In this document: in pieces, positions 8,615 to 41,882 of the stretch | Numbering within the stretch: the first letter of the stretch is position 1 | Layout: each line of letters opens with the position of its first letter | Assembly: GCA_963804645.1 (NCBI GenBank) | Contig: CAWDRG010000006.1 | Span: forward strand, 32,001-96,000 | DNA length: 64,000 nucleotides | From: an uncultured Bacillota bacterium | GTDB lineage: Bacteria; Sysuimicrobiota; Sysuimicrobiia; Sysuimicrobiales; Segetimicrobiaceae | Reading direction: 5' to 3' | The notes under the pieces: generated by a model | The model's database searches: none | Seen by the model: only the letters and a program-made list of their open reading frames with translations | What the model was told of the DNA's origin: nothing | Translations under genes and position numbers: made by a program

Positions 8615-8946
8615 GCCAGCCACGGCCGTCGGGACACCCCTCGATGGCGATCGTTTGCAGCGTATCGGTGTCCGCTTCGGCGCGCACCGACACGTTCCCG
8701 ATTATATCAGGTGCCCGCGGGAGGCGGATTGACCGCGCGCCTCGACGGGCCCTTCGGAACCGGCTGCGCCGTGGGTGCGCGTTGAGGGCACCCGCGGCCG
8801 GCTGTGGGGTCATAACAGGTTGGATCAGTTGGATCAGTCAGCGATTTCGCAAAGGACCAGTAGCAAGTGACAGGCGCGCTCAATAGAATCAGCGGCGTTT
8901 CGTCAGATCGCCTGCCGCACGGCATTTTTGCATTTGCGGACGCGGC

Positions 8947-8975
8947 TTGCATTCCAACGAATCTTGTGCTATTAT
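8947..8975 (+). promoter_or_regulatory. IS-internal sigma70-type promoter for the small ORF
   Basis: TTGCAT-17 bp-TATTAT with TG extension; similar TTGCAT...TGCTA segment in copy 2 at 40012-40040. Confidence 0.55.
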
Positions 8976-8985
8976 ATTAAACAAG

Positions 8986-9375
8986 ATGACTCGAGGACGG
9001 CTGCGACTCGATTACAAGGCGCCGCAGGGCGAGGAGGCCGCGCGCCTGCGCCAGCGGAAGCGCGCCTTGGTCCAGCGGCAGTGTCACCTGCCCGAGACCC
9101 TCGACACCATGTTGCCCGGGTCCCTGACCTTGAGCCATGTGCGGTGCGGAAAACCGAACTGTCACTGTGCGACGGGCGACGGCCATCCCAACTGGACGCT
9201 CGGGTATATGCTCGACCGGAAGCCCCGCGTCCAGCACATCCCGCGCGCGTGGGCAGACGACATTCGGGCACGGGTGGACGCGGGGCGGGCATTTCAAGAT
9301 GCCGTGCGCGAGGTGTTGGCGACCAACGTGCAGTTGCTCGTCCTGGCGCGCAAGCAACGGCGGAAGGCCCCGTAG
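8986..9375 (+). CDS. IS accessory protein with CGKxxCHC motif (DUF6788-like)
   Basis: LPGSL...RCGKPNCHC..GDGHP.W.L; clear homolog at 40062-40451. Confidence 0.75.
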   Translation: MTRGRLRLDYKAPQGEEAARLRQRKRALVQRQCHLPETLDTMLPGSLTLSHVRCGKPNCHCATGDGHPNWTLGYMLDRKPRVQHIPRAWADDIRARVDAGRAFQDAVREVLATNVQLLVLARKQRRKAP

Positions 9376-9377
9376 CG

Positions 9378-10637
9378 GTGGGGCGGCACGAGATCGAGGC
9401 CTACGTCGAGAAAATCTTCGATTGGTCGGCGCTGCTGACCCGTCTGCCGGACGGGCGACGGCACCCGCAGCACTCGTGCCAGAAGGTCTTCGCCGCGGTG
9501 TTCTGGGGCGCGGTTGGGCGGATCCCGAGCTTCCATCAGTTGGAGTATGAGTGCAGAGCCGGGGGGCTGCGTCATCGCATTGGGCCGCTCAGTGAGGACA
9601 CGCTGCGCTACACCCTCGAGCGCGTGGCGCCTGAGGCAGTGTTCGCGCTGGGCTGCGAAGTCGCGCGACGGCTGAAGCGCAATGGGGTCCTGCGCACGGA
9701 TGCCGCGCAAGGCTTGATCGTGGCCGCAGTGGACGGGATCGAGCTTTGTCAGTCCTACGTCCGCTGCTGCGACAGGTGTCTGGAGCGGATGGTAGACCGC
9801 CTGGTCGATGGCGTGCAGCAGACGGCCGTGCAATATTATCACCGCATGGTGGCCGTCGTCATTGTGAGCACCGCGTTTCCGATTCCGCTGGGGATTCGCT
9901 TTCAGGCGCCGGGCGAAGGCGAAGTCCCGTGTGCGCATGCGCTGCTGGAGGAGCTCGTGGAGCGGCTGGGCCGGCGGTTCGTGGACGTGCTGGTGGGGGA
10001 TGCGCTCTATCTGGGCAAACCGTTCATCGACGCCATCGAAGCGCTCGGGCTCGATTGGGTGTGCAACATTAAAGACAATCAGGCCGAGTTGCTGGCGGAA
10101 CTGGAGCGCCGGGTGACGGGGGTGACGCCGGGCGAGGTGCGCACACCTGACGCCGCGACGCAGTGCTGGCATGTCCCCGATGTCTCATGGTTGGCGGGAG
10201 ACCGGTCCGTGCGCTGCCTCAAGGAGGTGCGGCAGGAGGCGCAGACGCGGCTGCGGGTCGAGGGCGAAGGGGGGCACCGGACGCGGCGCAAAACGGTGGT
10301 GTGGGAAGAGAGCATGAACCTGTACGCGAGCAACCTTGATGTGCTGGCGTGTTCCCCAACGGGGCTGGCGGCGCTGGGGCGCTCGCGGTGGCGCATTGAT
10401 ACTGAAGTCTTCCAGACGCTGACGAAAGAGTGCCAGCTCAAGCATCCGGCGGTGCACCAGCAGCACGATCAAGCCTTCATGGTGCTCACCATGATTCGCA
10501 TTCTGGCCTATACGCTGCTGCTGGTCTTCTTTCATCGCCAGGTGCTGAGTCACGCCCGCCACACGCCGCCGACTCTCTGCCAGGTTGCGACCCAAGTCGT
10601 CCCAGCGTTCGCCCAGGTGCACCCCGACTCGAGTTGA
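9378..10637 (+). CDS. DDE transposase (IS4/ISAs1-like RNase H fold)
   Basis: AAVDG, VGDALY, RSRWRIDTEVF catalytic-type motifs; lies within the IRs. Confidence 0.85.
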   Translation: MGRHEIEAYVEKIFDWSALLTRLPDGRRHPQHSCQKVFAAVFWGAVGRIPSFHQLEYECRAGGLRHRIGPLSEDTLRYTLERVAPEAVFALGCEVARRLKRNGVLRTDAAQGLIVAAVDGIELCQSYVRCCDRCLERMVDRLVDGVQQTAVQYYHRMVAVVIVSTAFPIPLGIRFQAPGEGEVPCAHALLEELVERLGRRFVDVLVGDALYLGKPFIDAIEALGLDWVCNIKDNQAELLAELERRVTGVTPGEVRTPDAATQCWHVPDVSWLAGDRSVRCLKEVRQEAQTRLRVEGEGGHRTRRKTVVWEESMNLYASNLDVLACSPTGLAALGRSRWRIDTEVFQTLTKECQLKHPAVHQQHDQAFMVLTMIRILAYTLLLVFFHRQVLSHARHTPPTLCQVATQVVPAFAQVHPDSS

Positions 10638-10850
10638 CCGGCAGCGCCGGGATGCCCATGGTCCGGAGTCGCGACTCGGACTCTTCGGTCCTCTCTCCGT
10701 CATCAGGTCCCACCGTTCCCGTTCGCTCACTCGTGCAGCTGCGAATCTACCGCAAGACTGTTCGATCGGCTTGTATGCCGCCCCGAGACCAGCAGGCGTC
10801 TGGCTTCCCCCTGTCCATTTGCGAAATCGCTGTTGGATCAGTGGAAGCGC

Positions 10851-10878
10851 TTGACATTGTGCAAGGATCGGGTATACT
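10851..10878 (+). promoter_or_regulatory. sigma70-type promoter
   Basis: TTGACA (10851-10856), 16 bp, TATACT (10873-10878). Confidence 0.75.
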
Positions 10879-10926
10879 GATGAAGACAGGATTCTGACCA
10901 GGCAAGTCCAATGGGGGACTGTCAAG

Positions 10927-24107: not shown

Positions 24108-24131
24108 CCTCAGTCCTCGGTGCCCGCCGTG

Positions 24132-29068: not shown

Positions 29069-29265
29069 CCAGCGTCGCGGTACAAGCGCGGCACGTTGCG
29101 TAACCGGCCGAGGGGGGAGCAGACGCTCCTCCCTCGGCGGCACGTTCGGGGGATGCACGGCGCGCATGCGCGTGAGACGGCGGCGCGGCCGGGTGTTCGG
29201 GCCCGGGACGGTGCTATAATGGTGCAGCTCAGGCGGTCCGCCGCCCGCAGCGCAGGAGGACCGGA

Positions 29266-29845: not shown

Positions 29846-29862
29846 ACGCGCGGCGGTTCGGG

Positions 29863-29902
29863 CACGACGAAGGCCCGCCTGCGCAGGCGGGCCTTCGTCG
29901 TG
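29863..29902. terminator. Perfect 40-bp palindrome between convergent genes
   Basis: CACGACGAAGGCCCGCCTGC directly followed by its reverse complement. Confidence 0.75.
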
Positions 29903-29924
29903 GATCCGCGCTCCCCGAGCAGCC

Positions 29925-30641: not shown

Positions 30642-30810
30642 CGATGTCCCCCCTCGGCGCGCCCGTGACTGTGCAGCCGTCCGGCGCCCGTTTCCCTGTT
30701 TCCAAACGCCGCCGGGGCGCGAATGGTTCCACGGCAGGGAAGGGTCGGCACCGGGACGAAACATCTGTCGGTTCGGCGGTCCGCAAGGCGGATCAGCCCC
30801 GGGAGGGTGC

Positions 30811-31170
30811 ATGTTCGCGCTCAACTTCTACTCCTCCCTGTTCGCGCACGCGCTGCGCGACGGGAGCAAGACGCTCACGATCCGGCTCGGCGACAAGCGG
30901 GACAAGTATCAGGCGGGCCAGCTGGTCTGGGTGACCGTCGGGCAGCGCTTCGGAACGCGGCAGCGGATCTTCACCGCGGTGATCGATCGGGTGGAGACGA
31001 AATCGGTCCGCGAGGTGTCCCCGCGGGAGATGGAGCGCGACAACGCGGCCGTGCGCGACCACGACAGCCTGATCGAGTTCCTCTCGAAGATCTACAGCCG
31101 GATGATCATCCCCGAGGACGTCGTCACCGTGATTCACTTCTCGCACGTCACCGACGCGCGCGACGACTGA
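30811..31170 (+). CDS. ASCH/PUA-like domain protein
   Basis: LRDGSKTLTIRLG (GxKxxTxR-type motif); GGGAGG RBS. Confidence 0.75.
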   Translation: MFALNFYSSLFAHALRDGSKTLTIRLGDKRDKYQAGQLVWVTVGQRFGTRQRIFTAVIDRVETKSVREVSPREMERDNAAVRDHDSLIEFLSKIYSRMIIPEDVVTVIHFSHVTDARDD

Positions 31171-32039
31171 CTGAGCCGCGGCTCTCGCTGCGCACGCCCC
31201 CGCCGCCGCTTCGCGTCGGACCCACGGTCCTTGAGTTCGGCCGCCGGACGTACGTGTGCGGCATCATCAACATGACGCCCGATTCGTTCGCCGGGGACGG
31301 CCTCGCCGGCGACGCCGGCGCCGCGGAGGCGCGGGGGCACGCGTGGCGCGCCGAGGGCGCGGACCTGCTCGACGTCGGCGGGCGCTCGACGCGGCCCGGG
31401 GCGCCGCCCGTGGACGTCGCGGAAGAGCTGCGTCGCACGATTCCCGCGATCCGCCGCCTCGCGTCGGTCGGGCTGCCCCTGAGCGTCGACACCTCGTCCG
31501 CCGAGGTCGCGCAGGCGGCGCTGGACGCCGGGGCCGCGATGATCAACGATGTGACCGCGCTGCGCGGGGATCCCGCGATGGGCGCTGTCGTCGCGCGCGC
31601 GGGCGTCCCGGTCGTGCTAATGGACGGGGACGACCGGACCGGCGTGCCGGATCCGGTGTCGGAGACAGTCCGGTTTCTCCGCGAGCGGATCGGCGCGGCC
31701 GCCGCGTGCGGGATCGACACGCGCCGCATCATCGTCGACCCGGGCTACGGGTTTGGGCTCGCCCTCTGGCAGAACATGGCGCTGCTCCGCCGTCTCGGCG
31801 AGCTGGGCGCGCTCGGCCGTCCCATCCTGGTCGGCACCTCGCGCAAAGGGAGCATCGGGAGAGTGTTGAACCTACCGGTCCATGATCGGGTGGAAGGGAC
31901 CGCGGCCACGGTCGCCGTGGCGATCGCGCACGGCGCCGACATCATCCGGGCGCACGACGTGCGTGCGATGGTGCGGGTCGCCCGCATGACCGACGCGATC
32001 GTGCGCGGCCGTGACGCGGCGCCCGGGGGCCCGGCGTGA
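31167..32039 (+). CDS. folP: Dihydropteroate synthase (start uncertain, possibly CTG)
   Basis: GIINMTPDSF, DVGGRSTRPG, DPGYGFG, GTSRKG, IIRAHDV. Confidence 0.95.
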   Translation: MTEPRLSLRTPPPPLRVGPTVLEFGRRTYVCGIINMTPDSFAGDGLAGDAGAAEARGHAWRAEGADLLDVGGRSTRPGAPPVDVAEELRRTIPAIRRLASVGLPLSVDTSSAEVAQAALDAGAAMINDVTALRGDPAMGAVVARAGVPVVLMDGDDRTGVPDPVSETVRFLRERIGAAAACGIDTRRIIVDPGYGFGLALWQNMALLRRLGELGALGRPILVGTSRKGSIGRVLNLPVHDRVEGTAATVAVAIAHGADIIRAHDVRAMVRVARMTDAIVRGRDAAPGGPA

Positions 32040-32401
32040 GCGACCGCATCGTGCTCGCGGAGATGGCCTTCCACGCCCATCACGGGGTGCTGCCCGACGA
32101 GCAGGAGGCGGGCCAGGTGTTCGTCGTCGACCTCGAGGTCGAGGCGGACCTGCACCGCGCCGGCCACACGGACGACCTCGCCGACACCCTGGACTACCGC
32201 GACCTCTACGCCCGTGTGCGCGAGGCGGTGACCGGCGACCGCTGCCGCCTGCTCGAGGCCGTCGCGGAGGCGGTGGCGCACCGCGTGCTCGAGATCGAGC
32301 GCGTCCAGGCGGTGACCGTTCGGGTGCGCAAGCCGCACGTCCGGCTCGGCGGGCCGCTCGGGCACGCCGCGGTTGAGGTGACACGGCGGCGGCGCGCATG
32401 A
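32036..32401 (+). CDS. folB: Dihydroneopterin aldolase
   Basis: FHAHHGV..EQEAGQ.F.VD, DDLADTLDY, VRVRKP. Confidence 0.95.
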   Translation: MSDRIVLAEMAFHAHHGVLPDEQEAGQVFVVDLEVEADLHRAGHTDDLADTLDYRDLYARVREAVTGDRCRLLEAVAEAVAHRVLEIERVQAVTVRVRKPHVRLGGPLGHAAVEVTRRRRA

Positions 32402-33546
32402 TCGACGCGGGCGGCCTGCGCGCGGCGCTGCGCCGCGCCGCGTGGCTGGAGATCGGCTCGCTGTTCTGGCTCCTCGTCATGGGCGCGGCGGCGGTCGCCG
32501 CGGGGCTCGCGTCGCGCAGCCTGTCGGTGACGGCGTTCGGCGTGGTCGGCCTGATCGAGATGCTGTCCGCCTCGGCCGTGTTGTGGCGGCTTTGGATCGA
32601 GACCCTGGTCGGCTCCGTGTCCGGGACCGCGGAACTCGTCGAGCAGGCCGAGCGGGGCGCGGTACGCTTCATCGCCGTGAGCTTCGGCGCGCTCGCGCTC
32701 CTCGTGGCCGCCGGCGCCGCCCGCGCGGTGGCGGAGCGCGCGGTGCCCGCGCCGGGGCTCGGGGACCTCGCGGTCGCGTGCGCGGCCGCGCTCGTCATGC
32801 CGGGCCTGTGGGCCCTCAAATCGCGCGCGGGGCGCGCGATCGGGAGCGCGGCGCTCGACGCGGACGCCGCCGGCAACCTGGCGTGCGCCGTCATGGCATG
32901 GGTGCTCCTCGCCGGCCTGCTGGCGCAGCGGGCGGGGCTGTGGTGGGCCGATCCCGCGGCGGCGCTCGTGATCGGCGCGCTGGTGGTCCGCGAGGCGTGG
33001 GGCACGTGGCAGTCGCGCTCCTGGGCGCCGCGCGATCCGGTGCGGGCGTTTCTGGGCCTGGGGTCGAACGTCGGCGACCGCGCCTACTGGCTCGCGGACG
33101 CGGCGGCGAAGCTTCAGGGGCCGGCGCTGAGCGTCGTCCGGCGCTCGCGCATCTACGAGACGCCGCCCTGGGGCAAGACCGATCAGCCGGCGTTCCTCAA
33201 CCAGGTCCTCGAGGTTGAGACGACGCTCGCGCCGAGCGCGCTGCTCGCGCGCTGCCAGGCGGTCGAGCGGGCCCTCGGCCGCGTGCGCGCGGAGCGGTGG
33301 GGCCCCCGGGTGATCGACGTGGACATCCTGCTCTACGGCGACGCGGTGATCCGGGCGCGCGGCCTCACGGTGCCGCACCCCGATCTGGACCGGCGCGCGT
33401 TCGTGCTGGTCCCGCTCCTGGAGCTGCGGCCGTCCCTGACGCTCCCGGACGGACGGACCGGGGCGGAGCTCCTGGCCGCGCTGCCGGACCGCACGGCGAT
33501 CGTGCCGTGGGGCGCGGACACGCGGGGCGGCGCCGCGCGGGTCTAG
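32398..33546 (+). CDS. folK: Fusion of a cation-efflux-like membrane domain with HPPK
   Basis: About 200 aa hydrophobic N-part (WADPAAALVI) continuous in frame with AFLGLGSNVG, FLNQV, RWGPRVIDVDIL, RRAFVLVPL. Confidence 0.88.
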   Translation: MIDAGGLRAALRRAAWLEIGSLFWLLVMGAAAVAAGLASRSLSVTAFGVVGLIEMLSASAVLWRLWIETLVGSVSGTAELVEQAERGAVRFIAVSFGALALLVAAGAARAVAERAVPAPGLGDLAVACAAALVMPGLWALKSRAGRAIGSAALDADAAGNLACAVMAWVLLAGLLAQRAGLWWADPAAALVIGALVVREAWGTWQSRSWAPRDPVRAFLGLGSNVGDRAYWLADAAAKLQGPALSVVRRSRIYETPPWGKTDQPAFLNQVLEVETTLAPSALLARCQAVERALGRVRAERWGPRVIDVDILLYGDAVIRARGLTVPHPDLDRRAFVLVPLLELRPSLTLPDGRTGAELLAALPDRTAIVPWGADTRGGAARV

Positions 33547-33582
33547 GATCCGCGCCGCGGGACGGAAGAAGGGAGACGTCGG

Positions 33583-34371
33583 ATGGAAGCCTACACGCGT
33601 GACGGCATCGCGGACCGGCTCGGCACGCGCGTGGTCGGCCGCCACGTGCGGTGGCACGATGTGCTGCCGTCGACGAACGAGCTGGCGATGCGCCTGGCCG
33701 AGATTCACGTGCCCGAGGGCACGGTCGTCGTCGCGGAGGAGCAGACCGCGGGGCGGGGCCGCCGCGGCCGCACGTGGGTGTCCCCGCGCGGGGGCATCTG
33801 GCTGTCCGTGATCCTCCGCCCACGCCTGCCGCTGGCCCAGCTCCCGCTCGTCGGCCTCGCGGTCGCGGTCGCCGCGGCGCGGGCGATTCGGGTCACTACG
33901 CGTCTCGCGGCCCGGGTGAAGTGGCCGAACGATGTCCTCGTCGACGGCGCCAAGGTCGCCGGCGTGCTGACCGAGGCCGGGCCCGACGGGGAGTGGATCG
34001 TCGTGGGGGTGGGCATCAACGCGAACGTGGAGCCCTCCGAGCTGCCCCACGATCTTCCGCAGCCGGCGCTGTCGCTGGCCGGCCGGTTGGGGGCGCCGGT
34101 GGACCGCGGCGAGCTCACGCGCCTCCTGCTGCGCGAGATCGACCATGCGTACGGGCAGCTCCAGGAGGCCGCGGGCGCCGCGCACGTCGTGCGGTCGTGG
34201 CGGGAGATGGCGGACACCCTCGGCCGCCCGGTGCGCGTGGAAGGCCAGGGCCGCGCGCTCGACGGGATCGCGGTGGACGTGGACGATCTGGGCGCGCTGC
34301 TGGTGCGAACCGCGGACGGCGCGGTCGAGCGCGTGGTGGCCGGCGAGGTGACGCTGCGGGGGCTCGAATGA
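33583..34371 (+). CDS. birA: Biotin--acetyl-CoA-carboxylase ligase
   Basis: STN, QTAGRGRRGRTW, KWPNDV, KVAGVL, GVGIN. Confidence 0.95.
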   Translation: MEAYTRDGIADRLGTRVVGRHVRWHDVLPSTNELAMRLAEIHVPEGTVVVAEEQTAGRGRRGRTWVSPRGGIWLSVILRPRLPLAQLPLVGLAVAVAAARAIRVTTRLAARVKWPNDVLVDGAKVAGVLTEAGPDGEWIVVGVGINANVEPSELPHDLPQPALSLAGRLGAPVDRGELTRLLLREIDHAYGQLQEAAGAAHVVRSWREMADTLGRPVRVEGQGRALDGIAVDVDDLGALLVRTADGAVERVVAGEVTLRGLE

Positions 34372-35360
34372 GGCCGTTCCCCGCGGGGCGCCTCACGGAC
34401 GTCCCCGGGCTCTCGGTGGGGCACGCGACCGATCTCGAGCACCTGACCGGGTGCACGGTCGTCCTCTGCGAGCGCGGGGCGGTGTGCGGCGCGGCGTCCC
34501 TCGGCGGCGCGCCGGGGACCCGTGAGACGGATCTGCTGCGGCCCGAGAACGTCGTTGATCGCGTCCACGCGATCGTGCTGGCCGGCGGCAGCGCGTTCGG
34601 GCTGGCGGCCGCCGATGGCGTGATGCGCTGGCTTGCGGGTCGCGGGGTGGGATTCGAGACGGCGGCCGCGCGCGTACCGATCGTGCCCGCCGCGGTCCTC
34701 TACGATCTCGGGATCGGCGGCGCTGCGGCGAGACCGGACGCCGCGATGGGCGAGCGGGCGTGCCGGGACGCCTCGGCCGGAGACGTGATGGAAGGGTGCG
34801 TCGGCGCCGGGACGGGTGCCACCGTCGGCAAGGTCTTCGGGCTCGCGGGGGCCATGAAGTCGGGGATCGGCACGTGCAGCGTGTCGGTCGCGGGCGGCGC
34901 GATCGTCGGGGCGCTGGTCGTGACCAACGCGTTCGGAGATGTGGTGGATCCCGCGACCGGCGCGATCGTCGCCGGGGCGCGCGATCCCGCGACGGGGACG
35001 ATGCCCGGCACGTCGGTGCGTTTGCGGAGCGCCGGCCGAGGCGCCGGGGCGGGACTCGGACCGGACCGGGCGCAGCACACCACCCTCGGCGTCGTCGCGA
35101 CCGACGCCGCGCTCACGGTGGCGGAGGCGACGCGGCTCGCGCTCGCCGCGCACACCGGGCTCGCCCGCGCGGTCCGCCCGTCGCACACGTCCGTCGACGG
35201 CGACACGATGTTCGCGCTCAGCACGGGCTCGTCCAGGGCCGACCTGCTCGTCCTGGAGGCGGCCGCCGCGGACGCCGTGGCCGAGGCGATCCTGCGCTCG
35301 GTGCGCGCGGCGCGCACGCTCGGGGGCGTGCCCGGGCTCGCGGGGGAGGGGTCGGGATGA
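34368..35360 (+). CDS. P1/S58 family peptidase (DmpA-like)
   Basis: LTDVPGLSVGHA, GGAPGTRETD, GGSAFGL, TTLGVVATDA, DGDTMFALS. Confidence 0.9.
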   Translation: MRPFPAGRLTDVPGLSVGHATDLEHLTGCTVVLCERGAVCGAASLGGAPGTRETDLLRPENVVDRVHAIVLAGGSAFGLAAADGVMRWLAGRGVGFETAAARVPIVPAAVLYDLGIGGAAARPDAAMGERACRDASAGDVMEGCVGAGTGATVGKVFGLAGAMKSGIGTCSVSVAGGAIVGALVVTNAFGDVVDPATGAIVAGARDPATGTMPGTSVRLRSAGRGAGAGLGPDRAQHTTLGVVATDAALTVAEATRLALAAHTGLARAVRPSHTSVDGDTMFALSTGSSRADLLVLEAAAADAVAEAILRSVRAARTLGGVPGLAGEGSG

Positions 35361-35659
35361 TCGTAGAGATCGCGATGCTGTCGGTGCGCCGTGGGGAGGA
35401 GGAGGCATTCGAAGCCGCCTTCGCCGAGGCGGCGCCGATCATCGCGTCGATGGCGGGGTACCTCGGACACGAGCTGCTCCGCTGCGTCGAGGCGCCGCAC
35501 CGGTACGCACTGCTCGTCCGGTGGCGGACCCTCGAGGACCACACGGTCGGGTTTCGCCAAGCCCCGGCGTACCAGGAGTGGCGGCGGCGGCTGCACCACT
35601 TCTACGAGCCGGCGCCGGTCGTCGAGCACTTCGCTCCGGTCTCGCCGACGCCGCGGTAA
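35357..35659 (+). CDS. Antibiotic biosynthesis monooxygenase (ABM) family protein
   Basis: EAFEAAF, YALLVRWRTLEDHTVGFR, LHHFYEP. Confidence 0.88.
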   Translation: MIVEIAMLSVRRGEEEAFEAAFAEAAPIIASMAGYLGHELLRCVEAPHRYALLVRWRTLEDHTVGFRQAPAYQEWRRRLHHFYEPAPVVEHFAPVSPTPR

Positions 35660-35824
35660 GGCGGCGGCCCGGTGTGCGGGCCCTGGCAAGCCATAAGTAA
35701 GTGTTACCAGGCCGGTCTTCCCCAATTGGCAGGAGCCCAGGGTCAAAAACGGAAATCCTGGCTTGCATGACTATCCTCCACTGTCTTGCAAATGAACTGT
35801 ATCTGGAACTTCTAGGATGAGAAC

Positions 35825-36244
35825 ATGAAAAAGTCGGGCGCGAACCAAGGCCAGTCGGCATCGGAGCTCATCTCGAAAAGAATCGCCGAACTCGGGGACT
35901 GGCGCGGGGAAACCCTCAGCAGAATGCGCAAGCGCATCAAGGAGGCAGACCCGGACGTTGTCGAGGAGTGGAAGTGGATGGGCACTCCGATTTGGTCGCA
36001 CGACGGCATCATCTGCACTGGCGAATCCTACAAGAATGTCGTGAAGCTTACCTTCTCCAAGGGCGCGTCTCTGAAAGATCCGTCCCGTCTCTTCAACTCG
36101 AGTCTCGACGGAAACGCACGCCGCGCGATCGACATCCACGAAGGAGAAGACGTTGACGAGTCCGCCTTCAAGGCGCTCGTTCGCCAAGCGGTCGCCCTCA
36201 ACAGTTCTGGCAAGTCGAAACCTTCGAAGAAAGCGAAGTCGTAA
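35825..36244 (+). CDS. DUF1801 (YdhG-like) protein, cargo of element C
   Basis: [41 protein letters not shown]. Confidence 0.85.
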
Positions 36245-36359
36245 GGGATTCCGCCCCTGAACAGGTCCGACATCGGGGTGGCGGAGGTGTCGTTCCGCCC
36301 GAGCGTACCCAGGTTGAAGATGGCCCCGACGGTCGCAAGGAGCGAATAGTGGGAATACC

Positions 36360-36803
36360 GGTTGAGGAGCGTCCCGGGTTTGGTGCGGCCGTAGAGGCGG
36401 CGGTTGAGATGCCGTTTCTTCTGGCCCAACCGGCGATCGATGGTGCGGGCACTGATGGTGCGGCGGGCCCGTTCCACATGCAGCGGGATGGTGAACCGCC
36501 GCTTCGCCCAGGGGAACCACAGCGGCAGCAGGGCCTTGAGCCGTATCGACCACGGATACCCGGCCGCCTCCCAAATGTGCATGAGGAGCGTCGGGGTCCG
36601 GGGCCCATAGGGCGAGGGGCGCCCCGACCGCCGGCGTGGCGGAGTGGTGCGGGGTGGCCGGGCGAACGCCCGAATGGCAGCCTTGCGATGATACTGCAGG
36701 GTGGCACAGGCATCGGTGCGCAATTGCGACTTCACCGCACGAGACGCGTGCACGTACCGATGCTGCATCGCCTGAAGGTCCTCGCGCTAGCCTTGGGGGT
36801 CAC
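36360..36803 (-). pseudogene. Truncated, frameshifted family 2 transposase (N-terminal part only)
   Basis: [20 protein letters not shown] and [13 protein letters not shown] match elements A and B; catalytic domain missing. Confidence 0.88.
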
Positions 36804-36905
36804 CGGGGTCTCCTGAGTCGCAAGATAGGGGCGTCGCTGGGTAACACAAATTTTGGCGCGACGATCCAATCCCCGGTAACGCTTTACCTGGCTTGATACG
36901 CGGGC

Positions 36906-36934
36906 TTGCCCCGGGCGGACGGGCCTGCTACGCT
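36906..36934 (+). promoter_or_regulatory. Putative coaX promoter
   Basis: TTGCCC, 17 bp, TACGCT with TG extension (TGcTACGCT). Confidence 0.55.
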
Positions 36935-37056
36935 ACGGATGGCCGATATCCCGCGCGGAATCGGACCGGCCGCTCCGGCTCGTCGCCTCCGCTCCCTGAT
37001 CCCCGAGCGAGACCGTCCGGTCCTGGCGGGCACCCTTGGAACGGAGGCGTCCTCCG

Positions 37057-37872
37057 ATGCTCCTCGCCGTCGACGTCGGCAACACGCTGATCAAGCTCGC
37101 CCTGTACCGCGGGGAGACGCGCGTGGCGCATTGGTCGATGGCCACCGATCGCGGGCGCACCGCCGACGAATACGCGATGCTCTGGCGGCAGTTCCTCGAG
37201 TTCGGCGGCTACCGGTTCGCGGACGTCTCCGCGGTCGCCGTCGCATGCGTCGTGCCCCAGCTCGCGGAGACGCTGCGGCGGCTGTGCCGCGACTACCTGG
37301 GCCAGACGCCGCTTGAAGTCGGGCCCGGAATCCGCACCGGGATGCGCATTCTGTACGACAACCCACGGGAAGTCGGCGCCGACCGCATCGCCAACGCGGT
37401 CGCGGCGTACGCCCGCTACGGCGGGCCCGTGATCGTCGTGGCGCTCGGCACCGCGACGGTCTTCACCGTCGTCTCGAAGGACGGGGAGTTCCTGGGGGGT
37501 GCCATCGCGCCGGGCATCGGGATCTCGGTCGAGGCGCTCGTGCAGCACGCCGCGCAGCTGCGCAAGGTCGAGCTCGTCCGTCCGAGCCAGGTGATCGCCC
37601 GCAACACGGTGGCCGCGATGCAGTCCGGCGTGCTGTACGGCGTCATCGGGCAGATCGAAGGCATCATCGCGCGGATGCGCGCGGAGCTGGGCGCGCCGGC
37701 GGCGGTGGTGGCGACGGGGGGCTACGCGGAGCTGGTCGGTGCGGCGTGCCGCTGCGTCGACCACGTGGACCCGCTCCTGTCGCTCGAGGGGCTGCGCCTC
37801 CTCCACGATCGTAACAGCGTGGCGCCGGGCGCAGGAGAGGCCCGCACGGAGGTCCAAGACACGGCGAGATGA
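37057..37872 (+). CDS. coaX: Type III pantothenate kinase
   Basis: LLAVDVGNT, EVGADRIAN, GGAIAPG, VVATGG; GGAGG RBS. Confidence 0.95.
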   Translation: MLLAVDVGNTLIKLALYRGETRVAHWSMATDRGRTADEYAMLWRQFLEFGGYRFADVSAVAVACVVPQLAETLRRLCRDYLGQTPLEVGPGIRTGMRILYDNPREVGADRIANAVAAYARYGGPVIVVALGTATVFTVVSKDGEFLGGAIAPGIGISVEALVQHAAQLRKVELVRPSQVIARNTVAAMQSGVLYGVIGQIEGIIARMRAELGAPAAVVATGGYAELVGAACRCVDHVDPLLSLEGLRLLHDRNSVAPGAGEARTEVQDTAR

Positions 37873-38786
37873 AGCGCGTCGTCAGCGTCAGCCTGGGCAG
37901 CAGCACGCGCGACAAGCGCGTCGAGACGGAGATCCTCGGGGAGCCGTTCGTGATCGAGCGGATCGGCACCGACGGGGACATGGGCCGGTTCCGCGACCTC
38001 GTCGAGGAGCTGGACGGGCACGTCGACGCGATCGGGATGGGCGGCATCGACCTGTATCTGCGGGCCGGAAACCGCCGCTATCAGATCCGGGATGCCGCGC
38101 GCCTGGTCGCGGGCGTCCACCGGACCCCGGTCGTGGACGGCGGCGGGATCAAGGGGTCGTGGGAGAAGTACCTGATCGAGACCTACCTGCCCCGGGAGGC
38201 CGGCGTATCGTTCCGGGGGCGCAAGGTGCTGCTGGTCAGCAGCGTGGACCGGTACGGCATGGCCGAGGCGTTCACGCAGGCCGGCGCCGAGACGGTGTTC
38301 GGGGACTTCTACTTCGCGCTCGGGCTCCCGATCCCGATGCGCCGGCTCGGGACCGTGCGCCTGCTCGCCGCGTGCATGCTGCCGGTGCTGACCAAGCTGC
38401 CGTTCCAGATGCTGTATCCGACCGGCTCGAAGCAGGAGCGCACCACCCCGAAGTACACGCACCTGTTCCGGTGGGCGGACGTGATCGCCGGGGACTTTCA
38501 CTTTATCCGGCGCTACATGCCGGACGACCTGCGGGGGAAGACGATCTTCACGCAGACGATCACGGAGGAGGACCGCAACGCGCTCGCGCGGCGCGGCGCG
38601 GCCATGCTGATCACCGCCGCGCCCGACATGGACGGCCGCTCGTTCGCGACGAACGTGCTCGAGGGGATCGTGGTGGCGCTCTCGGGGCGGACGAGCGACA
38701 CGCTCACCCCGGACGAGATCGTCCAGTGGCTGCTGCGCGCGGGGTTCCGGCCGCGCGTGGAGCGCCTCGCGGAGCCGGCCTCGTGA
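37869..38786 (+). CDS. Conserved protein of uncertain function
   Basis: MKRVVSVSLGSSTRD, AIGMGGIDLY, GRSFATNVLEG; coupled to both neighbours. Confidence 0.7.
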   Translation: MKRVVSVSLGSSTRDKRVETEILGEPFVIERIGTDGDMGRFRDLVEELDGHVDAIGMGGIDLYLRAGNRRYQIRDAARLVAGVHRTPVVDGGGIKGSWEKYLIETYLPREAGVSFRGRKVLLVSSVDRYGMAEAFTQAGAETVFGDFYFALGLPIPMRRLGTVRLLAACMLPVLTKLPFQMLYPTGSKQERTTPKYTHLFRWADVIAGDFHFIRRYMPDDLRGKTIFTQTITEEDRNALARRGAAMLITAAPDMDGRSFATNVLEGIVVALSGRTSDTLTPDEIVQWLLRAGFRPRVERLAEPAS

Positions 38787-39919
38787 GCGACGCGATCGGG
38801 CGGTTCGCGATCATCATCCACCCGCAGTCCGTCAGCGACTACACCAAGAAGTTTCCGTTCACGCGGCTCCTGCCGGCCGCGTTCGTCGAGCGCGCGTTCA
38901 CGATGGTCCCGCCGTTCGAGGCGTCGCACATCACCGGCATCGTGTCGGCGACCGGCGCCCGAGCCGAGGGGTGGTTCGTCGGACTGCCGTGGACGCCGCG
39001 CGTGTTGCTGGCGATGCCGCCCCAGGCGACGACCCGCCGCCTCGTGCAGGCCGGGCGGATCGCGGAGCGCCTCGGCGCGGGGATCGTCGGGTTGGCCGCG
39101 TTCACCAAGGTCGTGGGCGACCGGGGCGTCTCGGTCGCGCGGGAGCTCACGATCGGCGTGACCACGGGCAACAGCCTGACGGCGGCCACCGCGGTTGAGG
39201 GCGCCGCGCTCGCGGCGTCCCGGATGGGCGTGCCGATCGGCGCCGCACGGGTCGCCGTGGTCGGCGCCACGGGCTCGATCGGCGCCGCGTGCAGCCAGAT
39301 GCTCGCGCGGCAGGCCGGCGAACTCGTCCTGGTGGCGCGGAACCGCGAGCGCCTGGAGCGGCTCGCCGAGCGGCTCCGCGCCACCGCGGTCGGGCCCGTC
39401 TCGGTCACCTCCGACCTGCGCGCGGCGGTGAGGTCGGCCGACGTCGTGATCACCGTTAGCTCGGCGATCGACGTGCTGATCGAGCCGGAGGATCTGCGGC
39501 CCGGCACCGTCGTGTGCGACGTCGCGCGTCCGCGCAACGTCTCGCGCCTCGTCTACGAGCGGCGCCGGGACGTGCTCGTGATCGACGGCGGCGTGATCGA
39601 CGTGCCGGGCCCCGTCCAGTTCGGCTTGGACTTCGGGTTTCCGCCGGGGTCGTGCGAGGCGTGCATGGCCGAGACGATCCTGCTCGCGCTCGAGCACCGC
39701 TACGACGACTACACGGTCGGCGCGGACGTCGACCTCGCGAAAGTCGAGGAGATCCACGGGCTGATGCGCACGCACGGGTTTCGCCTCTCGGGGTTGCGCC
39801 GGTTCGAGCGGCGCATCTCCGACGACGAGGTCGAGGAGATTCGGCGCGCGGCGCGCGGCGCGCCGGCGCCGCCCGCGCGCGCCGCCGCGGTGCCACAGGA
39901 GTTTCGGAACCCGGGATAG
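38783..39919 (+). CDS. Rossmann-fold oxidoreductase (COG5322 / acyl-ACP reductase-like); last codons supplied by an IS
   Basis: TTGNSLT, VAVVGATGSIG, CDVARPRN, ACMAETILLALE. Confidence 0.8.
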   Translation: MSDAIGRFAIIIHPQSVSDYTKKFPFTRLLPAAFVERAFTMVPPFEASHITGIVSATGARAEGWFVGLPWTPRVLLAMPPQATTRRLVQAGRIAERLGAGIVGLAAFTKVVGDRGVSVARELTIGVTTGNSLTAATAVEGAALAASRMGVPIGAARVAVVGATGSIGAACSQMLARQAGELVLVARNRERLERLAERLRATAVGPVSVTSDLRAAVRSADVVITVSSAIDVLIEPEDLRPGTVVCDVARPRNVSRLVYERRRDVLVIDGGVIDVPGPVQFGLDFGFPPGSCEACMAETILLALEHRYDDYTVGADVDLAKVEEIHGLMRTHGFRLSGLRRFERRISDDEVEEIRRAARGAPAPPARAAAVPQEFRNPG

Positions 39920-40061
39920 CTGATCCACCGGGTCGCCCATAAAGAGGCCGATAAGGCGGCCGCTGCCAGCATCGTGGCAGGGGCCTCTATTTTCGCATTC
40001 GAACGGAGTACTTGCATTCACGAGTATCTTATGCTACTAATTACCATAGGATGAGGCGTCG

Positions 40062-40451
40062 ATGACAAAACCGACCCCGAAGTTGCGCGTGGACTTCACG
40101 GCGCCGCGCGGCCCGGTGGCGGCGCGGCTGCGGCAGCAGCAGCATGAGCTGTTGCGACGGTTTCGGTTGCCGGCGGAGTTGCTGGAGCAGTTGCCGGGAT
40201 CGTTGTCGTTGACTCATTTGCGGTGTGGGAAACCGACGTGCCACTGTGCGCGCGGTGAAGGACATCCGGCGTGGCATCTGACGTACACCGTCGGGGGGCG
40301 GAAACAGGTGCTGCACATTCCGACCGCGCTGGCGGAGGAGATCGGGCACCGGGTGGAGGCGGGGCATGCGGTGCAGGATGCGGTCCGCGACGTGCTGGCC
40401 GCTAACGCGCAGTTGTTGAAGTTGGCGCGTCAGCAGCAGCGGCGGCGATGA
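40062..40451 (+). CDS. IS accessory protein with CGKxxCHC motif (DUF6788-like)
   Basis: LPGSLSLTHLRCGKPTCHCARGEGHPAW; homolog of 8986-9375. Confidence 0.78.
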   Translation: MTKPTPKLRVDFTAPRGPVAARLRQQQHELLRRFRLPAELLEQLPGSLSLTHLRCGKPTCHCARGEGHPAWHLTYTVGGRKQVLHIPTALAEEIGHRVEAGHAVQDAVRDVLAANAQLLKLARQQQRRR

Positions 40452-41647
40452 GAGGGCCGACCCCGCGGCGTCTGTGGAAGTACGTCGTGCAGCGCTTACG
40501 CTTGGCCACCTACTTCGCGGCGCCTGGGGATGAGCGGCCCGCGCCGCAAATTCCGGCGCGGGCGATCTTGTGGGGGCTGGTGATCGGGCACATTCTGCGG
40601 GAAGACGCGTTTGCGGGGGTGGATGCCCTGGTCCGGGGCGCGGCCCGGGCGCTGGGCGTGGGCCGGCGGTTCAGTCACGATACGCTGGCATATGTGACCG
40701 CGCGGTTGGATCCGGGGCCGACGCGCGCGGCGTTGAGCGCGGTGGCACGCCGCGCGAAGCGGAATAAAGCCTTGGTGGGCAGTGGGTGGATTGGCCTCGC
40801 GGTGGATGGCACCGCGACCACCTGTCTCAGCAAGCCGGGGACCGACTGTCCGTACTGTCGACCGTTGCGCAAAGAGGATGGCACCCTGCTAGGGTATCGG
40901 CATGAGATGGCCGTGCTGAGCATCGTGAATGCGGGCGTGACGTTGCCGTGTGACCTGGAGCTCTACGGGCCGGGCGACAGTGAGTCGGCGGCGGGGCAGC
41001 GCGTGCTGCGGCGCGGGGTGGCGGCGTTGGGGCCGCGGTTCGCCGACTATGTCGTGGGCGACAGCAAATTCGCGACGGCACCCTTCCTGCATACGGCGGG
41101 GGACGTCGGCCTGCGGGTGGTGGCGCGCTTAAAGGACAATCTCCCGGAGCTCCATGCCGCGGCGCAGGCGCGGTTTGTGGGCCGCATGCCGACCGCGACG
41201 TTCACAGACGGTCGCGATCAGCTGGAGGTGTGGGATGCGAGCGATTTCGATCCGTGGGTGGGGCTGCGGTGGAAGACGGTACGCGTCCTGAAGTATCGGC
41301 AGACCAAGCCGAACGGCAAGATCATCGAAGCGTTCTGGTTGACCGATTGGCCGGTGAGTCTGGTGTCCAGTCACGCCTTGTACCGCATGGCCAAGAGCCG
41401 GTGGGAGATCGAGAATCAGATCTTCAATGTGGCGAAAACGTACCACGGATTGGAGCACGTCTGCCACCATCAAGGCACGAGCCTTGTGGCGAGTTGGCTC
41501 ATTACGCTGCTGGCGATCGCCATCGAAACGCTCTACCGTCTCCGCTTCTTGCATCGCGGCTCGCATCCCGTGCTCGCGGCGATCGACCTCTGCCGGCGCC
41601 TGCGGATGCAGCTCGCGTGCCGTCCCGCTAGCGCGGCCCCCGGCTAA
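40448..41647 (+). CDS. DDE transposase (IS4/ISAs1-like)
   Basis: LAVDG, VGDSKF, KSRWEIENQIFN; ATGA coupling to the accessory ORF. Confidence 0.87.
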   Translation: MRGPTPRRLWKYVVQRLRLATYFAAPGDERPAPQIPARAILWGLVIGHILREDAFAGVDALVRGAARALGVGRRFSHDTLAYVTARLDPGPTRAALSAVARRAKRNKALVGSGWIGLAVDGTATTCLSKPGTDCPYCRPLRKEDGTLLGYRHEMAVLSIVNAGVTLPCDLELYGPGDSESAAGQRVLRRGVAALGPRFADYVVGDSKFATAPFLHTAGDVGLRVVARLKDNLPELHAAAQARFVGRMPTATFTDGRDQLEVWDASDFDPWVGLRWKTVRVLKYRQTKPNGKIIEAFWLTDWPVSLVSSHALYRMAKSRWEIENQIFNVAKTYHGLEHVCHHQGTSLVASWLITLLAIAIETLYRLRFLHRGSHPVLAAIDLCRRLRMQLACRPASAAPG

Positions 41648-41853
41648 CCCCCAGGCAGCGTGTCGAGGACGCGACCTCTGGCTTGCGGCCTCTCGAAGCC
41701 GCCGGCCTCGTCTCCCTCCACCCCCCAACAGCCCTTGCGTCGATGCCGGTCGGATTGATTCGGGACGCAAACACGCGCTCGGGCCTCTATTTTCGCCTCT
41801 CTTGCGTCCCCCCCAACGCAGGTTGCGAAATTGCTGGCGGTGCCAGAGCGCCT

Positions 41854-41882
41854 TTGACAACCGTGGACCTCTCTTGTATACT
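41854..41882 (+). promoter_or_regulatory. greA sigma70-type promoter
   Basis: TTGACA (41854-41859), 17 bp, TATACT (41877-41882). Confidence 0.85.

What the first reader, a model, noticed from the sequence alone, without database searches (positions are those of the whole stretch)
8829..41882. All five IS copies sit just upstream of a host -35 box: candidate promoter-targeted transposition
Seen: four insertion sites and five elements from two unrelated DDE families. Each right-hand target duplication is followed by a -35/-10 promoter at a family-specific distance: 8 bp for family 1 (promoters at 10851 and 41854) and 0 bp for family 2 (16125 and 36906). Orientation is fixed within each family, and the duplicated targets share no consensus. 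The -35 lies outside the element, so this is not the usual IS-supplied hybrid promoter. Known analogues: IS1202-group elements insert beside XerCD sites and yeast Ty3 beside Pol III promoters. Inference: insertion is guided by promoter-bound RNA polymerase/sigma or by the -35 motif, which spares the core promoter and downstream gene. Caveat: only two sites per family.
Basis: partly seen in the sequence, partly recalled or inferred. Interest (0 to 1): 0.92.

Follow-up and report, generated by a model that had tools for sequence, protein, structure and literature searches.

The report
Jumping genes that home to promoters
Two unrelated kinds of bacterial jumping gene in this genome land, always in the same orientation, at a fixed number of bases upstream of ordinary gene promoters, a habit already known from other transposon families but not from these two.

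Summary
Family 1 has a Tn5/IS4-like DDE transposase with an N-terminal DUF6788 domain. It is about 2 kb and makes a 9-10 bp TSD. Its transposase-3' end faces a promoter, and the TSD ends 8 bp before the -35. Family 2 is an ISNCY/IS1202-like rve transposase element of about 1.42 kb with a 5 bp TSD. Its transposase-5' end faces the promoter, and the TSD abuts the -35.

Family 2: across 36 distinct sites, TTG lies at offset 5 in 28, and TAnnnT lies at offset 28/29 in 31. Family 1: across 36 TSD-confirmed sites from several phyla, 24 have a -35-like hexamer and 28 a -10 in register. The opposite IS end, used as control, has a -10 in register in 3 of 49.

IS-free orthologous sites with the same conserved promoters exist for all four window sites. 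Metagenome contigs show empty alleles for two of them.

So this is promoter-targeted transposition. Whether RNA polymerase/sigma or the DNA motif guides it is unresolved. Earlier notes of this scan also report promoter-homing IS on other DNA. What is new here is the two transposase families and the 0-bp register.

The parts
8829..8838 (.). Left copy of the 10-bp target duplication of F1A (TTGGATCAGT). A further tandem TTGGATCAG lies at 8820-8828.
   Evidence: Sequence. Empty alleles with two or one copy in metagenome contigs.
8839..10832 (+). F1A, family-1 IS (1994 bp). Inverted repeats CAGCGATTTCGCAAA / TTTGCGAAATCGCTG. Transposase ORF 8928-10637 (569 aa).
   Evidence: (DDE_Tnp_1, 38.9 bits). 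Tn5-like fold.
10833..10842 (.). Right copy of the F1A target duplication.
10851..10878 (+). Host promoter: TTGACA 10851-10856, 16-nt spacer, TATACT 10873-10878.
   Evidence: Conserved and IS-free in the same-genus genome G004.
10885..10962 (+). Small transcription unit driven by that promoter, ending in an intrinsic-terminator hairpin plus U run. Conserved about 1 kb upstream of the 16S gene in 5 of 5 same-genus genomes. The start coordinate is approximate.
   Evidence: No Rfam match.
13264..14680 (-). F2a, family-2 IS (1417 bp). Transposase 13313-14659 (448 aa). ATGTA at 13259-13263 and 14681-14685.
14686..16119 (-). F2b, family-2 IS (1434 bp, about 70% DNA identity to F2a). Transposase about 14740-16098. 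ATGTA at 14681-14685 and 16120-16124.
16125..16153 (+). rRNA operon promoter P1: TTGACA 16125-16130 and TACAGT 16148-16153. A second promoter-like pair is TTGACA 16313-16318 and TATAAA 16336-16341. 16S starts at 16487.
   Evidence: IS-free in G004 ('ACGTA TTGACA'). Contig joint 13258>16120.
35682..36900 (-). F2c, decayed family-2 copy (1219 bp, broken transposase). TSD CGGGC at 35677-35681 and 36901-36905.
36906..36934 (+). Host promoter of the type III pantothenate kinase gene (37036-37872): TTGCCC and TACGCT.
   Evidence: Conserved and IS-free in G004 and G002.
39896..41836 (+). F1B, family-1 IS (1941 bp). ORFs 40062-40451 (DUF6788 domain) and 40448-41647 (DDE). TSD GCGGTGCCA at 39887-39895 and 41837-41845. 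An identical copy lies on contig C19.
41854..41882 (+). Host promoter of greA (41961-42443): TTGACA 41854-41859 and TATACT 41877-41882.
   Evidence: Conserved and IS-free in G004, G001 and G006.

Best explanation
Both IS families carry out oriented, promoter-targeted transposition. Strand transfer happens at a fixed register upstream of the -35 element of housekeeping (sigmaA/sigma70-type) promoters. The core promoter and the gene stay intact, and the element sits in a safe place.

Family 1 cuts so that its 9- or 10-bp duplication ends 8 bp upstream of the -35, and its transposase-3' end (IRR) faces the promoter. Family 2 cuts so that its 5-bp duplication abuts the -35, and its transposase-5' end faces the promoter. 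A later arrival inserts at the same register and pushes the older copy outwards, which produces the tandem arrays.

Shown: the register, the orientation, the host origin of the promoters, and recent mobility. Inferred: the transpososome docks on the promoter-bound RNA polymerase holoenzyme (the sigma region 4 / alpha-CTD side), as proposed for TnGBS, with some direct base preference at the first bases of the -35. For family 1, the extra N-terminal DUF6788 domain is the candidate targeting module.
For: **Register**
- Family 2, n=36 distinct sites: T at offset 5 in 35, TTG in 28, TAnnnT at offset 28/29 in 31. All other offsets are at most 11%.
- Family 1, 36 TSD-confirmed sites (this genome and its same-phylum relatives; among named records mainly Acidobacteriota, also Planctomycetota, Verrucomicrobiota and others): a hexamer matching TTGACA at 4 or more of 6 positions at offset 17/18 in 24, TAnnnT at 40-42 in 28. 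The opposite-end controls have both boxes in 1 of 49 and a -10 in 3 of 49.
- The -35 offset equals TSD length + 8.

**Host promoters**
- The orthologous IS-free sites in G004 keep the boxes for all 4 window sites.
- Contig joints 8827>10832, 8829>10844 and 13258>16120 show empty alleles.
- Downstream lie the rRNA operon, tRNA-His (starting 50 nt from the IS tip), greA, rimP, rsmI, coaX, mrp and others.
- A TGn extended -10 is present in 20 of 32 family-2 targets.

**A functional promoter rather than the hexamer alone**
- Sites with poor -35 hexamers (GCACAT, TGGTTC, GTGCTT, GTGTGA, GCGCTC) still have the -10 in register.
- 8 of 10 weak -35 family-2 sites carry TGn.

**Pile-ups at one promoter, by different families**
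- F2a/F2b in the window.
- An F1B-like plus an F1A-like element on C2.
- A third DUF6788 lineage plus an IS256-family element on C13 and C15.

**Precedent**
- An RNAP-docking model has been proposed for TnGBS/ISLre2/ISKra4 (PMC3942029, passages).
Against: - No transcription start data exist. The promoters are predicted from sequence, conservation and gene context only.
- The docking step is not shown.
- Near-invariance of T at offset 5 (35 of 36) and of TTG in the 10-bp-TSD group of family 1 (T 84%, T 100%, G 95% of 19) exceeds what I recall for promoters in general. That fits direct base readout.
- The extended -10 enrichment among weak -35 sites is not significant (8 of 10 vs 12 of 22, Fisher p 0.25; family 1: 5 of 14 vs 8 of 20, p 1.0).
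- Exceptions exist.
  - 4 of 36 family-2 sites lack a TAnnnT at offsets 27-30 (L049, L052, L064, C19:125k).
  - The C19:125k copy sits in a nest of family-2 relics with no recognisable promoter.
  - Only 18 of 36 family-1 sites pass both strict box criteria.
  - A 30%-identical Bryobacterales group shows both boxes in 1 of 13 and a -10 in 6 of 13.
  - One distant element (L016) has the promoter-like flank at the other end and no TSD.
- Three rhizobial ISNCY relatives (3 looked at, of 273 matching records) show no TTGACA next to the same tip.
- One loose contig end (X1 at 14685) reads 5 further letters before TTGACA. It is unexplained.
Confidence: 0.5

Rival explanations
1. Targeting is real but purely DNA-guided. 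A DNA-binding domain of each transposase reads the TTG(AC) of the -35 hexamer beside the cut site. The -10 in register is there only because insertions next to non-promoter TTGAC (mostly inside genes) are lost by selection.
For: - T at offset 5 in 35 of 36 and TTG in 28 of 36 family-2 sites.
- TTG near-invariant in 19 family-1 sites with a 10-bp TSD.
- Among strong -35 sites, the -35 position is fixed while the -10 floats over offsets 40-42.
- Family-2 distal tips themselves carry TTGACA 2 bp from the end, so the transposase may well bind such a motif.
Against: - Sites with 0-3 of 6 matches to TTGACA still have a -10 in register. Family 2: GCACAT, TGGTTC, TGGAAC. Family 1: GTGCTT, GTGTGA, GCGCTC.
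- Two structurally unrelated transposases, plus an IS256-type element, use the same landmarks.
- 31 of 36 sites with a -10 at spacer 17-18, and TGn in 20 of 32, is a lot to ask of survivorship alone.
Confidence: 0.35
2. There is no targeting. Insertions are random or AT-biased, and only those just upstream of promoters survive because they break nothing.
For: Intergenic survivorship is a general bias of IS. All sites are intergenic or at gene ends.
Against: - Selection cannot give a single-base register (offset 5; offsets 17/18), strict orientation, or identical TSDs in tandem arrays.
- The opposite IS end shows background levels: both boxes in 1 of 49.
- Copies are near-identical (99.8-100%) and polymorphic in the population, so they are recent.
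Confidence: 0.03
3. The IS brings the promoter (outward or hybrid promoter), or the boxes belong to a longer mobile unit.
For: Many IS create hybrid promoters. The -35 lies close to the IS tip.
Against: - The boxes lie beyond the target duplication.
- Spacer sequences differ at every site.
- The same promoters stand without any IS in G004, G001, G002 and G006 and in empty-allele contigs.
Confidence: 0.01
4. Part of the pattern, namely the tandem arrays and the C19:125k nest, comes from elements inserting next to the ends of resident relatives (IS-end targeting, as known for IS30/IS21) and not next to promoters.
For: At C19:125k, F2b lies 5 bp from a relic family-2 tip and 5 bp from another element's TGTCAT end, with no promoter in view. 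In every tandem both cues coincide.
Against: Most sites are single insertions whose other flank is ordinary host DNA. Arrays also mix unrelated families whose ends differ, for example IS256-type next to a DUF6788-type element.
Confidence: 0.08

Closest known systems
TnGBS conjugative transposons, ISLre2 family and ISKra4 group (prokaryotic Mutator-like DDE transposases; Brochet 2009 and Guerillot 2013 as cited in, and Guerillot 2014 = PMC3942029, passages read)
   Same: Oriented insertion at a fixed short distance upstream of the -35 of sigmaA promoters, with IRR next to the promoter. Family 1 has almost the same geometry: 17-18 nt from IS tip to -35, against the published 15-17 (13-17). The 'avoid genes' rationale is the same, and so is the proposed docking on the RNA polymerase initiation complex.
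   Different: The transposases differ. Family 1 has a Tn5-like fold (1muh, E 1.4e-9; the IS256-type ISCth4 only 8e-4). Family 2 is retroviral-integrase/IstA-like. The ISLre2 and ISKra4 HMMs do not match these loci. Family 2 uses a 0-bp gap with a 5-bp TSD, and its transposase-5' end faces the promoter.
ISAba32/ISAjo2 subgroup of the IS1202 family (Siguier et al. bioRxiv 10.1101/2022.12.17.520857, abstract, Results and Discussion read; Harmer et al. PMC10132070, passages)
   Same: Family 2 shares the size (about 1.4 kb), a single 400-500 aa transposase and a 5-bp duplication. It also shares the transposase-proximal end sitting exactly 5 bp from the target, a fixed orientation, and tandem arrays separated by the same 5 bp. 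It is 40% identical to transposases annotated 'ISNCY family'.
   Different: The target is a promoter, not a XerC/XerD recombination site. The tips are C[G/C]...CG and not TGT...ACA. The C-terminal roughly 70 residues of the rhizobial relatives are missing. The word 'promoter' does not occur in PMC10132070.
Tn5/IS50 and the IS4 family
   Same: Family 1 shares the catalytic fold, a Pfam DDE_Tnp_1 match and a 9-10 bp duplication.
   Different: It scores below NCBIfam's IS4 cut-off (48.9 vs 115 bits). It has an extra N-terminal DUF6788 domain and strict promoter targeting. From memory, Tn5 and Tn10 have only weak target consensus.
Yeast Ty3 (Pol III start sites), Ty1, and Tn7 at attTn7 (recalled; Ty3 also named in PMC3942029)
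   Same: Host-machinery or landmark-guided insertion into a safe site next to essential, conserved genes. rRNA and tRNA promoters are among the targets here.
   Different: Different enzymes, hosts and landmarks. This is an analogy only.

Membership tests
IS1202 family, ISAba32 subgroup (for family 2) | IS of 1.3-2.0 kb with one transposase ORF of 400-500 aa | tested here: met
   1417 and 1434 bp; 448 aa and about 452-463 aa.
IS1202 family, ISAba32 subgroup (for family 2) | 5-6 bp target duplication, transposase-proximal end 5 bp from the target, fixed orientation | tested here: met
   14 elements with an exact 5-bp TSD. The proximal tip faces the target in 36 of 36 sites by construction of the set, and the boxes are seen only there.
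IS1202 family, ISAba32 subgroup (for family 2) | Target is a XerC/XerD site (xrs/dif) | tested here: not met
   The flanks show TTGACA-N17/18-TAnnnT with unconserved spacers, upstream of rRNA, tRNA and protein genes. No dif-like 11-6-11 pattern was seen by eye; no formal xrs model was run.
IS1202 family, ISAba32 subgroup (for family 2) | Outer ends 5'-TGT ... ACA-3' | tested here: not met
   Tips read CG/CC ... CG.
IS1202 family, ISAba32 subgroup (for family 2) | DDE with two extra conserved D residues, and Q seven residues after the E | tested here: inconclusive
   Alignment A2 has invariant D191, D212, D250, D252 and E288. The residue at E+7 is V (R at E+8). The assignment of the catalytic residues is my reading, and no ISfinder reference sequence was available.
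IS1202 family, ISAba32 subgroup (for family 2) | Sequence relationship to annotated members | tested here: met
   About 40% identity over about 90% of the length to 'ISNCY family transposase' genes of rhizobial plasmids (273 records matched).
IS481 family (for family 2) | Match to the curated IS481 model | tested here: not met
   NF033577: 43.9-44.6 bits against a cut-off of 224.
IS4 family / Tn5-like (for family 1) | DDE_Tnp_1 domain and Tn5-type fold | tested here: met
   PF01609: 38.9 and 26.4 bits (cut-off 23). Foldseek top hits are Tn5 transposase 1muh/3ecp/4dm0, E 1.4e-9 to 2.6e-9.
IS4 family / Tn5-like (for family 1) | Curated IS4 equivalog score | tested here: not met
   NF033592: 48.9 bits against 115. 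This is a distant branch.
Promoter-targeting Mutator-like groups (TnGBS/ISLre2, ISKra4) | Transposase belongs to p-MULT 3 or 4 | tested here: not met
   NF033529 (ISLre2): no match in the genome. NF033572 (ISKra4): one weak match (33.5 bits), at C15:175529-176338, which lies inside the IS256-type element and not in family 1 or 2.
Promoter-targeting Mutator-like groups (TnGBS/ISLre2, ISKra4) | [quoted passage not shown] | tested here: met
   This is a likeness of behaviour, not of family.

The most novel reading that the evidence does not exclude
The promoter-bound RNA polymerase holoenzyme is a general docking platform. At least three structurally unrelated transposase folds have learned to use it independently: Tn5-like with a DUF6788 add-on domain, IS1202/integrase-like, and Mutator-like, here even including an IS256-family element. 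Within the IS1202 lineage, a protein-guided target module was switched between XerCD-dif complexes and RNAP-promoter complexes while the 5-bp geometry was kept. If so, these elements are natural, portable 'insert just upstream of an active promoter' devices. Their flanks would also be a ready-made promoter map for uncultured phyla.
Probability: 0.35. Interest if true: 0.8.

Novelty: new variant of a known kind. Interest (0 to 1): 0.62.

Why it matters
1. It extends promoter-homing from the Mutator-like transposons to a Tn5-like and an IS1202-like lineage. These are widespread in soil phyla, notably Acidobacteriota, so the strategy is convergent and common rather than a streptococcal curiosity.
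2. Within one family, the IS1202 group, the same 5-bp docking geometry is used on two quite different landmarks (XerCD sites and promoters). That makes the unsolved question of how that family chooses its target directly testable by domain swaps.
3. The flanks of such IS give base-precise promoter predictions in organisms with no cultures and no transcriptomes. Here they show TTGACA/TAnnnT with frequent TGn.
4. Stacked arrays at rRNA, tRNA and greA promoters show that strong housekeeping promoters act as IS sinks. This matters for genome stability and for reading such arrays in assemblies.

Tried and rejected
- **Complex prediction** of the F2a transposase (alignment A3) with sigmaA region 4 (A4): 'no answer', score 0.00, controls not run. 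It says nothing either way.
- **RNA evidence**: no RNA holder listed for window 10833-12400, so no TSS test was possible.
- **Rfam**: nothing for the small RNA at 10840-11090 at E up to 1.
- **Relaxed Pfam scans of the transposase N- and C-terminal parts**: only noise (HTH_20 E 0.028; no sigma-like domain), and nothing beyond DUF6788 in the F1B N-terminal ORF.
- **N-terminal 148 residues of F1A**: modelled at pLDDT below 50, so the DUF6788 fold could not be searched.
- **Generic IR+TSD finder for family 2**: swamped by false pairs in this GC-rich DNA. It was replaced by a tip motif plus TSD and a tip PWM.
- **'Extended -10 compensates weak -35'**: a trend only (p 0.25).
- **ISKra4 or ISLre2 membership**: rejected by HMM.
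- **Plasmid collection**: no relative of family 1.
- **Paralogous IS-free sites**: none in the own genome.
- **Rows dropped before counts**:
  - Family 2: L045 (contig ends 1 nt after the tip); L062 (no end found); F2a in the window (its flank is F2b, so it counts as one site with F2b); truncated copies on C11 and C20.
  - Family 1: L009, L018, L020 and L025 (truncated or at a contig end); L010, L011, L014, L015 and L016 (no TSD pair found); and the genome-contig loci without a TSD-confirmed pair. 39 of the 80 genome-contig loci are in the set, which holds 49 elements once 9 from the genome search and the window's F1A are added.
- **Literature**: searches for IS4- or IS1202-type promoter targeting found none. 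The library lacks most subscription journals, and I did not see the supplementary tables of PMC3942029.

Full report
**What is in the window**

The window is contig C6, 32001-96000, of a 5.3-Mb, 69% G+C genome in 22 contigs. Five IS copies occupy four sites.

Family 1:
- F1A (8839-10832) has a single 569-aa ORF with a DDE_Tnp_1 domain.
- F1B (39896-41836) has the same architecture split into a 129-aa DUF6788 ORF and a 399-aa DDE ORF.
- The ends are CAGCGATTTCGCAAA-type inverted repeats.
- The duplications are 10 bp for F1A (TTGGATCAGT) and 9 bp for F1B (GCGGTGCCA).

Family 2:
- F2a (13264-14680) and F2b (14686-16119) encode 448- and roughly 452-463-aa proteins on the minus strand with a weak rve match. 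F2c (35682-36900) is decayed.
- The duplications are 5 bp. ATGTA stands at all three junctions of the F2a-F2b tandem, and CGGGC flanks F2c.

- After 8 bp: TTGACA 10851 / TATACT 10873, and TTGACA 41854 / TATACT 41877.
- After 0 bp: TTGACA 16125 / TACAGT 16148, and TTGCCC 36906 / TACGCT 36929.

The 16125 promoter is P1 of the rRNA operon; 16S starts at 16487. The others precede a small terminated RNA, coaX and greA.

**Are the promoters host DNA?**

Yes. In the same-genus genome G004, all four sites are IS-free and keep the boxes.
- 'cgcgcgcACGTA TTGACAacgcgcgtggggcgcgaTACAGT' before the rRNA operon.
- 'gcgcTTGACAtttggcaatgatcgagTATACT' before the small RNA.
- 'gcgccTTTGACAaccatggggacctcttgTATACT' before greA.
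- 'CGGGC TTGCCCgaggcggacgcgcctgcTACCCT' before coaX. G001, G002 and G006 agree where they align.

Public peat-metagenome contigs give the same answer. One joins 8827 to 10832 with 11 letters fitting either side (runs X3, X4). Another joins 8829 to 10844 (X1, X3). Both are empty F1A alleles. A third joins 13258 to 16120 (X4, 38 letters on the short side, 4 shared) and lacks both F2 copies. The insertions are therefore precise, recent and polymorphic.

**Genome-wide and beyond**

In the genome, all 7 evaluable family-1 sites have TAnnnT at offset 40-42: TATACT five times, plus TAGTCT and TACTCT. Four have a good -35 at offset 17/18. Of 9 family-2 sites, 8 have the boxes in register.

For family 2, I searched the 94 genomes held for the class. 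32 carry it. I set the tips with a 26-nt PWM built from TSD-confirmed ends. This gave 36 distinct sites.
- T at offset 5 in 35, TTG in 28.
- A match of 4 or more of 6 to TTGACA in 24.
- TAnnnT at offset 28 in 18 and at offset 29 in 13.
- No other offset exceeds 11%.
- The combined signature is present in 26 of 36, against a background of 1.4e-4 per genome position (p 7e-93).

One of the 36 sites (L043) comes from a genome flagged unpublished (G078).

For family 1, a profile scan of one genome per species returned 80 loci, mostly Acidobacteriota, also Planctomycetota, Verrucomicrobiota, Actinomycetota and others. Together with the earlier loci, 48 elements had matching inverted repeats and a 9/10-bp TSD with at most one mismatch. 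The window's F1A makes 49.

| Set | n | -35-like at 17/18 | -10 at 40-42 | Both boxes |
|---|---|---|---|---|
| Main set, transposase-3' flank | 36 | 24 | 28 | 18 |
| Bryobacterales group (30% identity) | 13 | not tallied (0.23 at offset 17) | 6 | 1 |
| Opposite end, outward flank (control) | 49 | not tallied | 3 | 1 |

Fisher tests of all 49 IRR flanks against the 49 controls give p 5.6e-6 for both boxes and 4.4e-11 for the -10. The -35 offset is TSD length + 8. Logos show no other conserved position.

**What the targets are**

Downstream lie the rRNA operon, tRNA-His (starting 50 nt from the IS tip), the small RNA, greA, rimP, rsmI, coaX, an Mrp/ApbC ATPase, methylmalonyl-CoA mutase, an ABC permease and hicA. 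tRNA genes also follow the sites in L053, L059, L060 and L065 (read from the sequences). A TGn extended -10 occurs in 20 of 32 family-2 and 13 of 34 family-1 targets. These are the hallmarks of genuine sigmaA-type promoters. No transcript data could be had.

**Pile-ups**

- F2b lies between F2a and rRNA P1 with the same ATGTA.
- On C2, an F1B-like copy is followed, after CGCGGCCCGG, by an F1A-like copy and then CCCGGCCCGG + 8 bp + TTGCGG...TATACT.
- A third, distant DUF6788 lineage ('1C', 7 copies at 6 sites) shows the same 9 + 8 register at TTGACG/TATTAT, TTGACA/TATAAT (twice) and TGTATC/TATAAT.
- Its two apparent exceptions are explained by a 1297-bp IS256-family element (NF033543, 302.9 bits). 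That element is inserted between the 1C copy and a perfect promoter: TTGACA-N16-TATAAT on C15 and TTGCGT-N18-TATAAT on C13. The duplications overlap.

Such stacks are what targeting by a cue on the promoter side predicts. The same reading was given for tandem ISKpn21 at dif (preprint).

**What the families are**

Family 1's core folds like Tn5 transposase (1muh, E 1.4e-9, TM 0.56 on the target). It scores below the curated IS4 cut-off and carries DUF6788. No paper in the library mentions DUF6788.

Family 2's core is retroviral-integrase/IstA-like. It is about 40% identical to 'ISNCY family' transposases of rhizobial plasmids and fails the IS481 model. Its anatomy matches the ISAba32 subgroup of the IS1202 family: 5-bp duplication, transposase-proximal end 5 bp from the target, fixed orientation, and tandems with one shared duplication. 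The target differs, since those elements sit beside XerCD sites, and so do the tips. Three rhizobial relatives that I looked at have no TTGACA at that place.

**Prior art**

Oriented DDE transposition 15-17 bp upstream of the -35 of sigmaA promoters is established for TnGBS, the ISLre2 family and the ISKra4 group. Those authors proposed contact with the RNA polymerase initiation complex and drew the analogy to Ty3. They found IS256 insertions to be random (PMC3942029, passages). Neither the ISLre2 nor the ISKra4 model matches families 1 or 2. Earlier notes of this scan also describe promoter-homing IS on other DNA, several of them rve-type and 5 bp from the -35. None shares sequence with these two families.

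**Mechanism**

Shown: the register, the orientation, the host promoters and the mobility.

Not shown: what reads the promoter.
- For RNA polymerase docking:
  - the -10 stays in register at sites with almost no -35;
  - TGn is frequent there (8 of 10);
  - unrelated enzymes use the same landmark.
- For direct readout:
  - the first T, or TTG, is near-invariant;
  - among strong sites the anchor is the -35 and not the -10.
- The TGn contrast between weak and strong -35 sites is not significant (p 0.25).
- A co-fold of the F2a transposase with sigma region 4 gave no answer.

I put docking at about 0.5 and pure DNA readout at about 0.35.

**Verdict**

The novelty is reduced to new transposase families and a new register for a known behaviour.

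Noticed in passing
G000 contigs C17 (~488-490k, ~396-398k), C13 (~50.6-55.0k, two in tandem), C9 (~1.176M), C1 (~168-170k), C15 (~173-175k): A third, distant lineage of the DUF6788 + DDE IS: about 2.09 kb, 9-bp TSD, 23-26% identity to F1A in the DDE part. It sits at the same register (TSD + 8 bp + -35) at 6 of 6 sites, once a nested IS256-type element is read through.
   Followed up: partly
G000 C13:54999-56295, C15:175231-176528 and about 6 further copies (C17, C4, C2, C1 twice, C9): An IS256-family element (1297 bp, ends GGTAGTGT...ACACTACC, 8-9 bp TSD) lies 7 bp upstream of a -35. TAnnnT is in register at 5 of 7 evaluable copies and absent at 2. The published survey found IS256 insertions to be random.
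   Followed up: partly
window 8820-8838 and contig joints: The empty F1A site occurs as two alleles, one with two tandem TTGGATCAG and one with a single copy. The extra 9-mer, followed by 8 bp and TTGACA, looks like the footprint of an earlier 9-bp-TSD insertion at the same promoter that was later lost.
   Followed up: partly
G000 C19:125300-127100: The one family-2 copy with no promoter beside it lies in a nest. In order: a relic tip (GGCACTTCG), cactc, a roughly 140-bp MITE-like derivative (TGTCATAGC...GAGTTGATTCG), gactc, F2b, gactc, then another TGTCATAGC end. This is unexplained and may be IS-end targeting.
   Followed up: partly
window 10885-10962: A roughly 75-nt RNA with a strong terminator hairpin. 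It is conserved about 1 kb upstream of the 16S gene in 5 of 5 same-genus genomes and has no Rfam family.
   Followed up: partly
window 10965-12502: A 1.5-kb stretch of lower G+C (55-59%) carrying a DUF4386 gene and a second ORF. It is absent from the orthologous place in G004, so it is probably an insertion between the small RNA and the gene upstream of the rRNA operon.
   Followed up: no
window 20365-20613: A group I intron (Rfam RF00028, 68.5 bits) inside the 23S rRNA gene.
   Followed up: no
window 55595-55671 and 59141, 60939, 62109, 63910: tRNA-Thr(TGT) followed by four dispersed copies of its 3' half (72-84% identical). This looks like the scars of serial integration of elements at this tRNA gene.
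   Followed up: no
window 56325-57428: About seven tandem copies of a 150-156-bp unit (63-83% identical), probably a repeat-domain coding region.
   Followed up: no
window 40448-40451: In F1B the DUF6788 ORF and the DDE ORF overlap by 4 nt, whereas F1A has one fused ORF. The two identical F1B copies suggest that the split form is functional, either as two proteins or by frameshifting.
   Followed up: no
window 14659-14680 and 16098-16119: The family-2 transposase start lies only about 21 nt inside the tip, behind an inward TAAAAT. A complete promoter cannot fit inside the element. The distal tip carries an outward TTGACA, as in IS that form a junction promoter in a circular intermediate, but the spacing with a 5-bp junction would be 21 nt.
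   Followed up: no
window 14685 (run X1): One contig runs through the F2a tip and ATGTA, then continues CTGCTTTGACACGACC... That places TTGACA 10 nt from the tip, not 5. It is unexplained.
   Followed up: no
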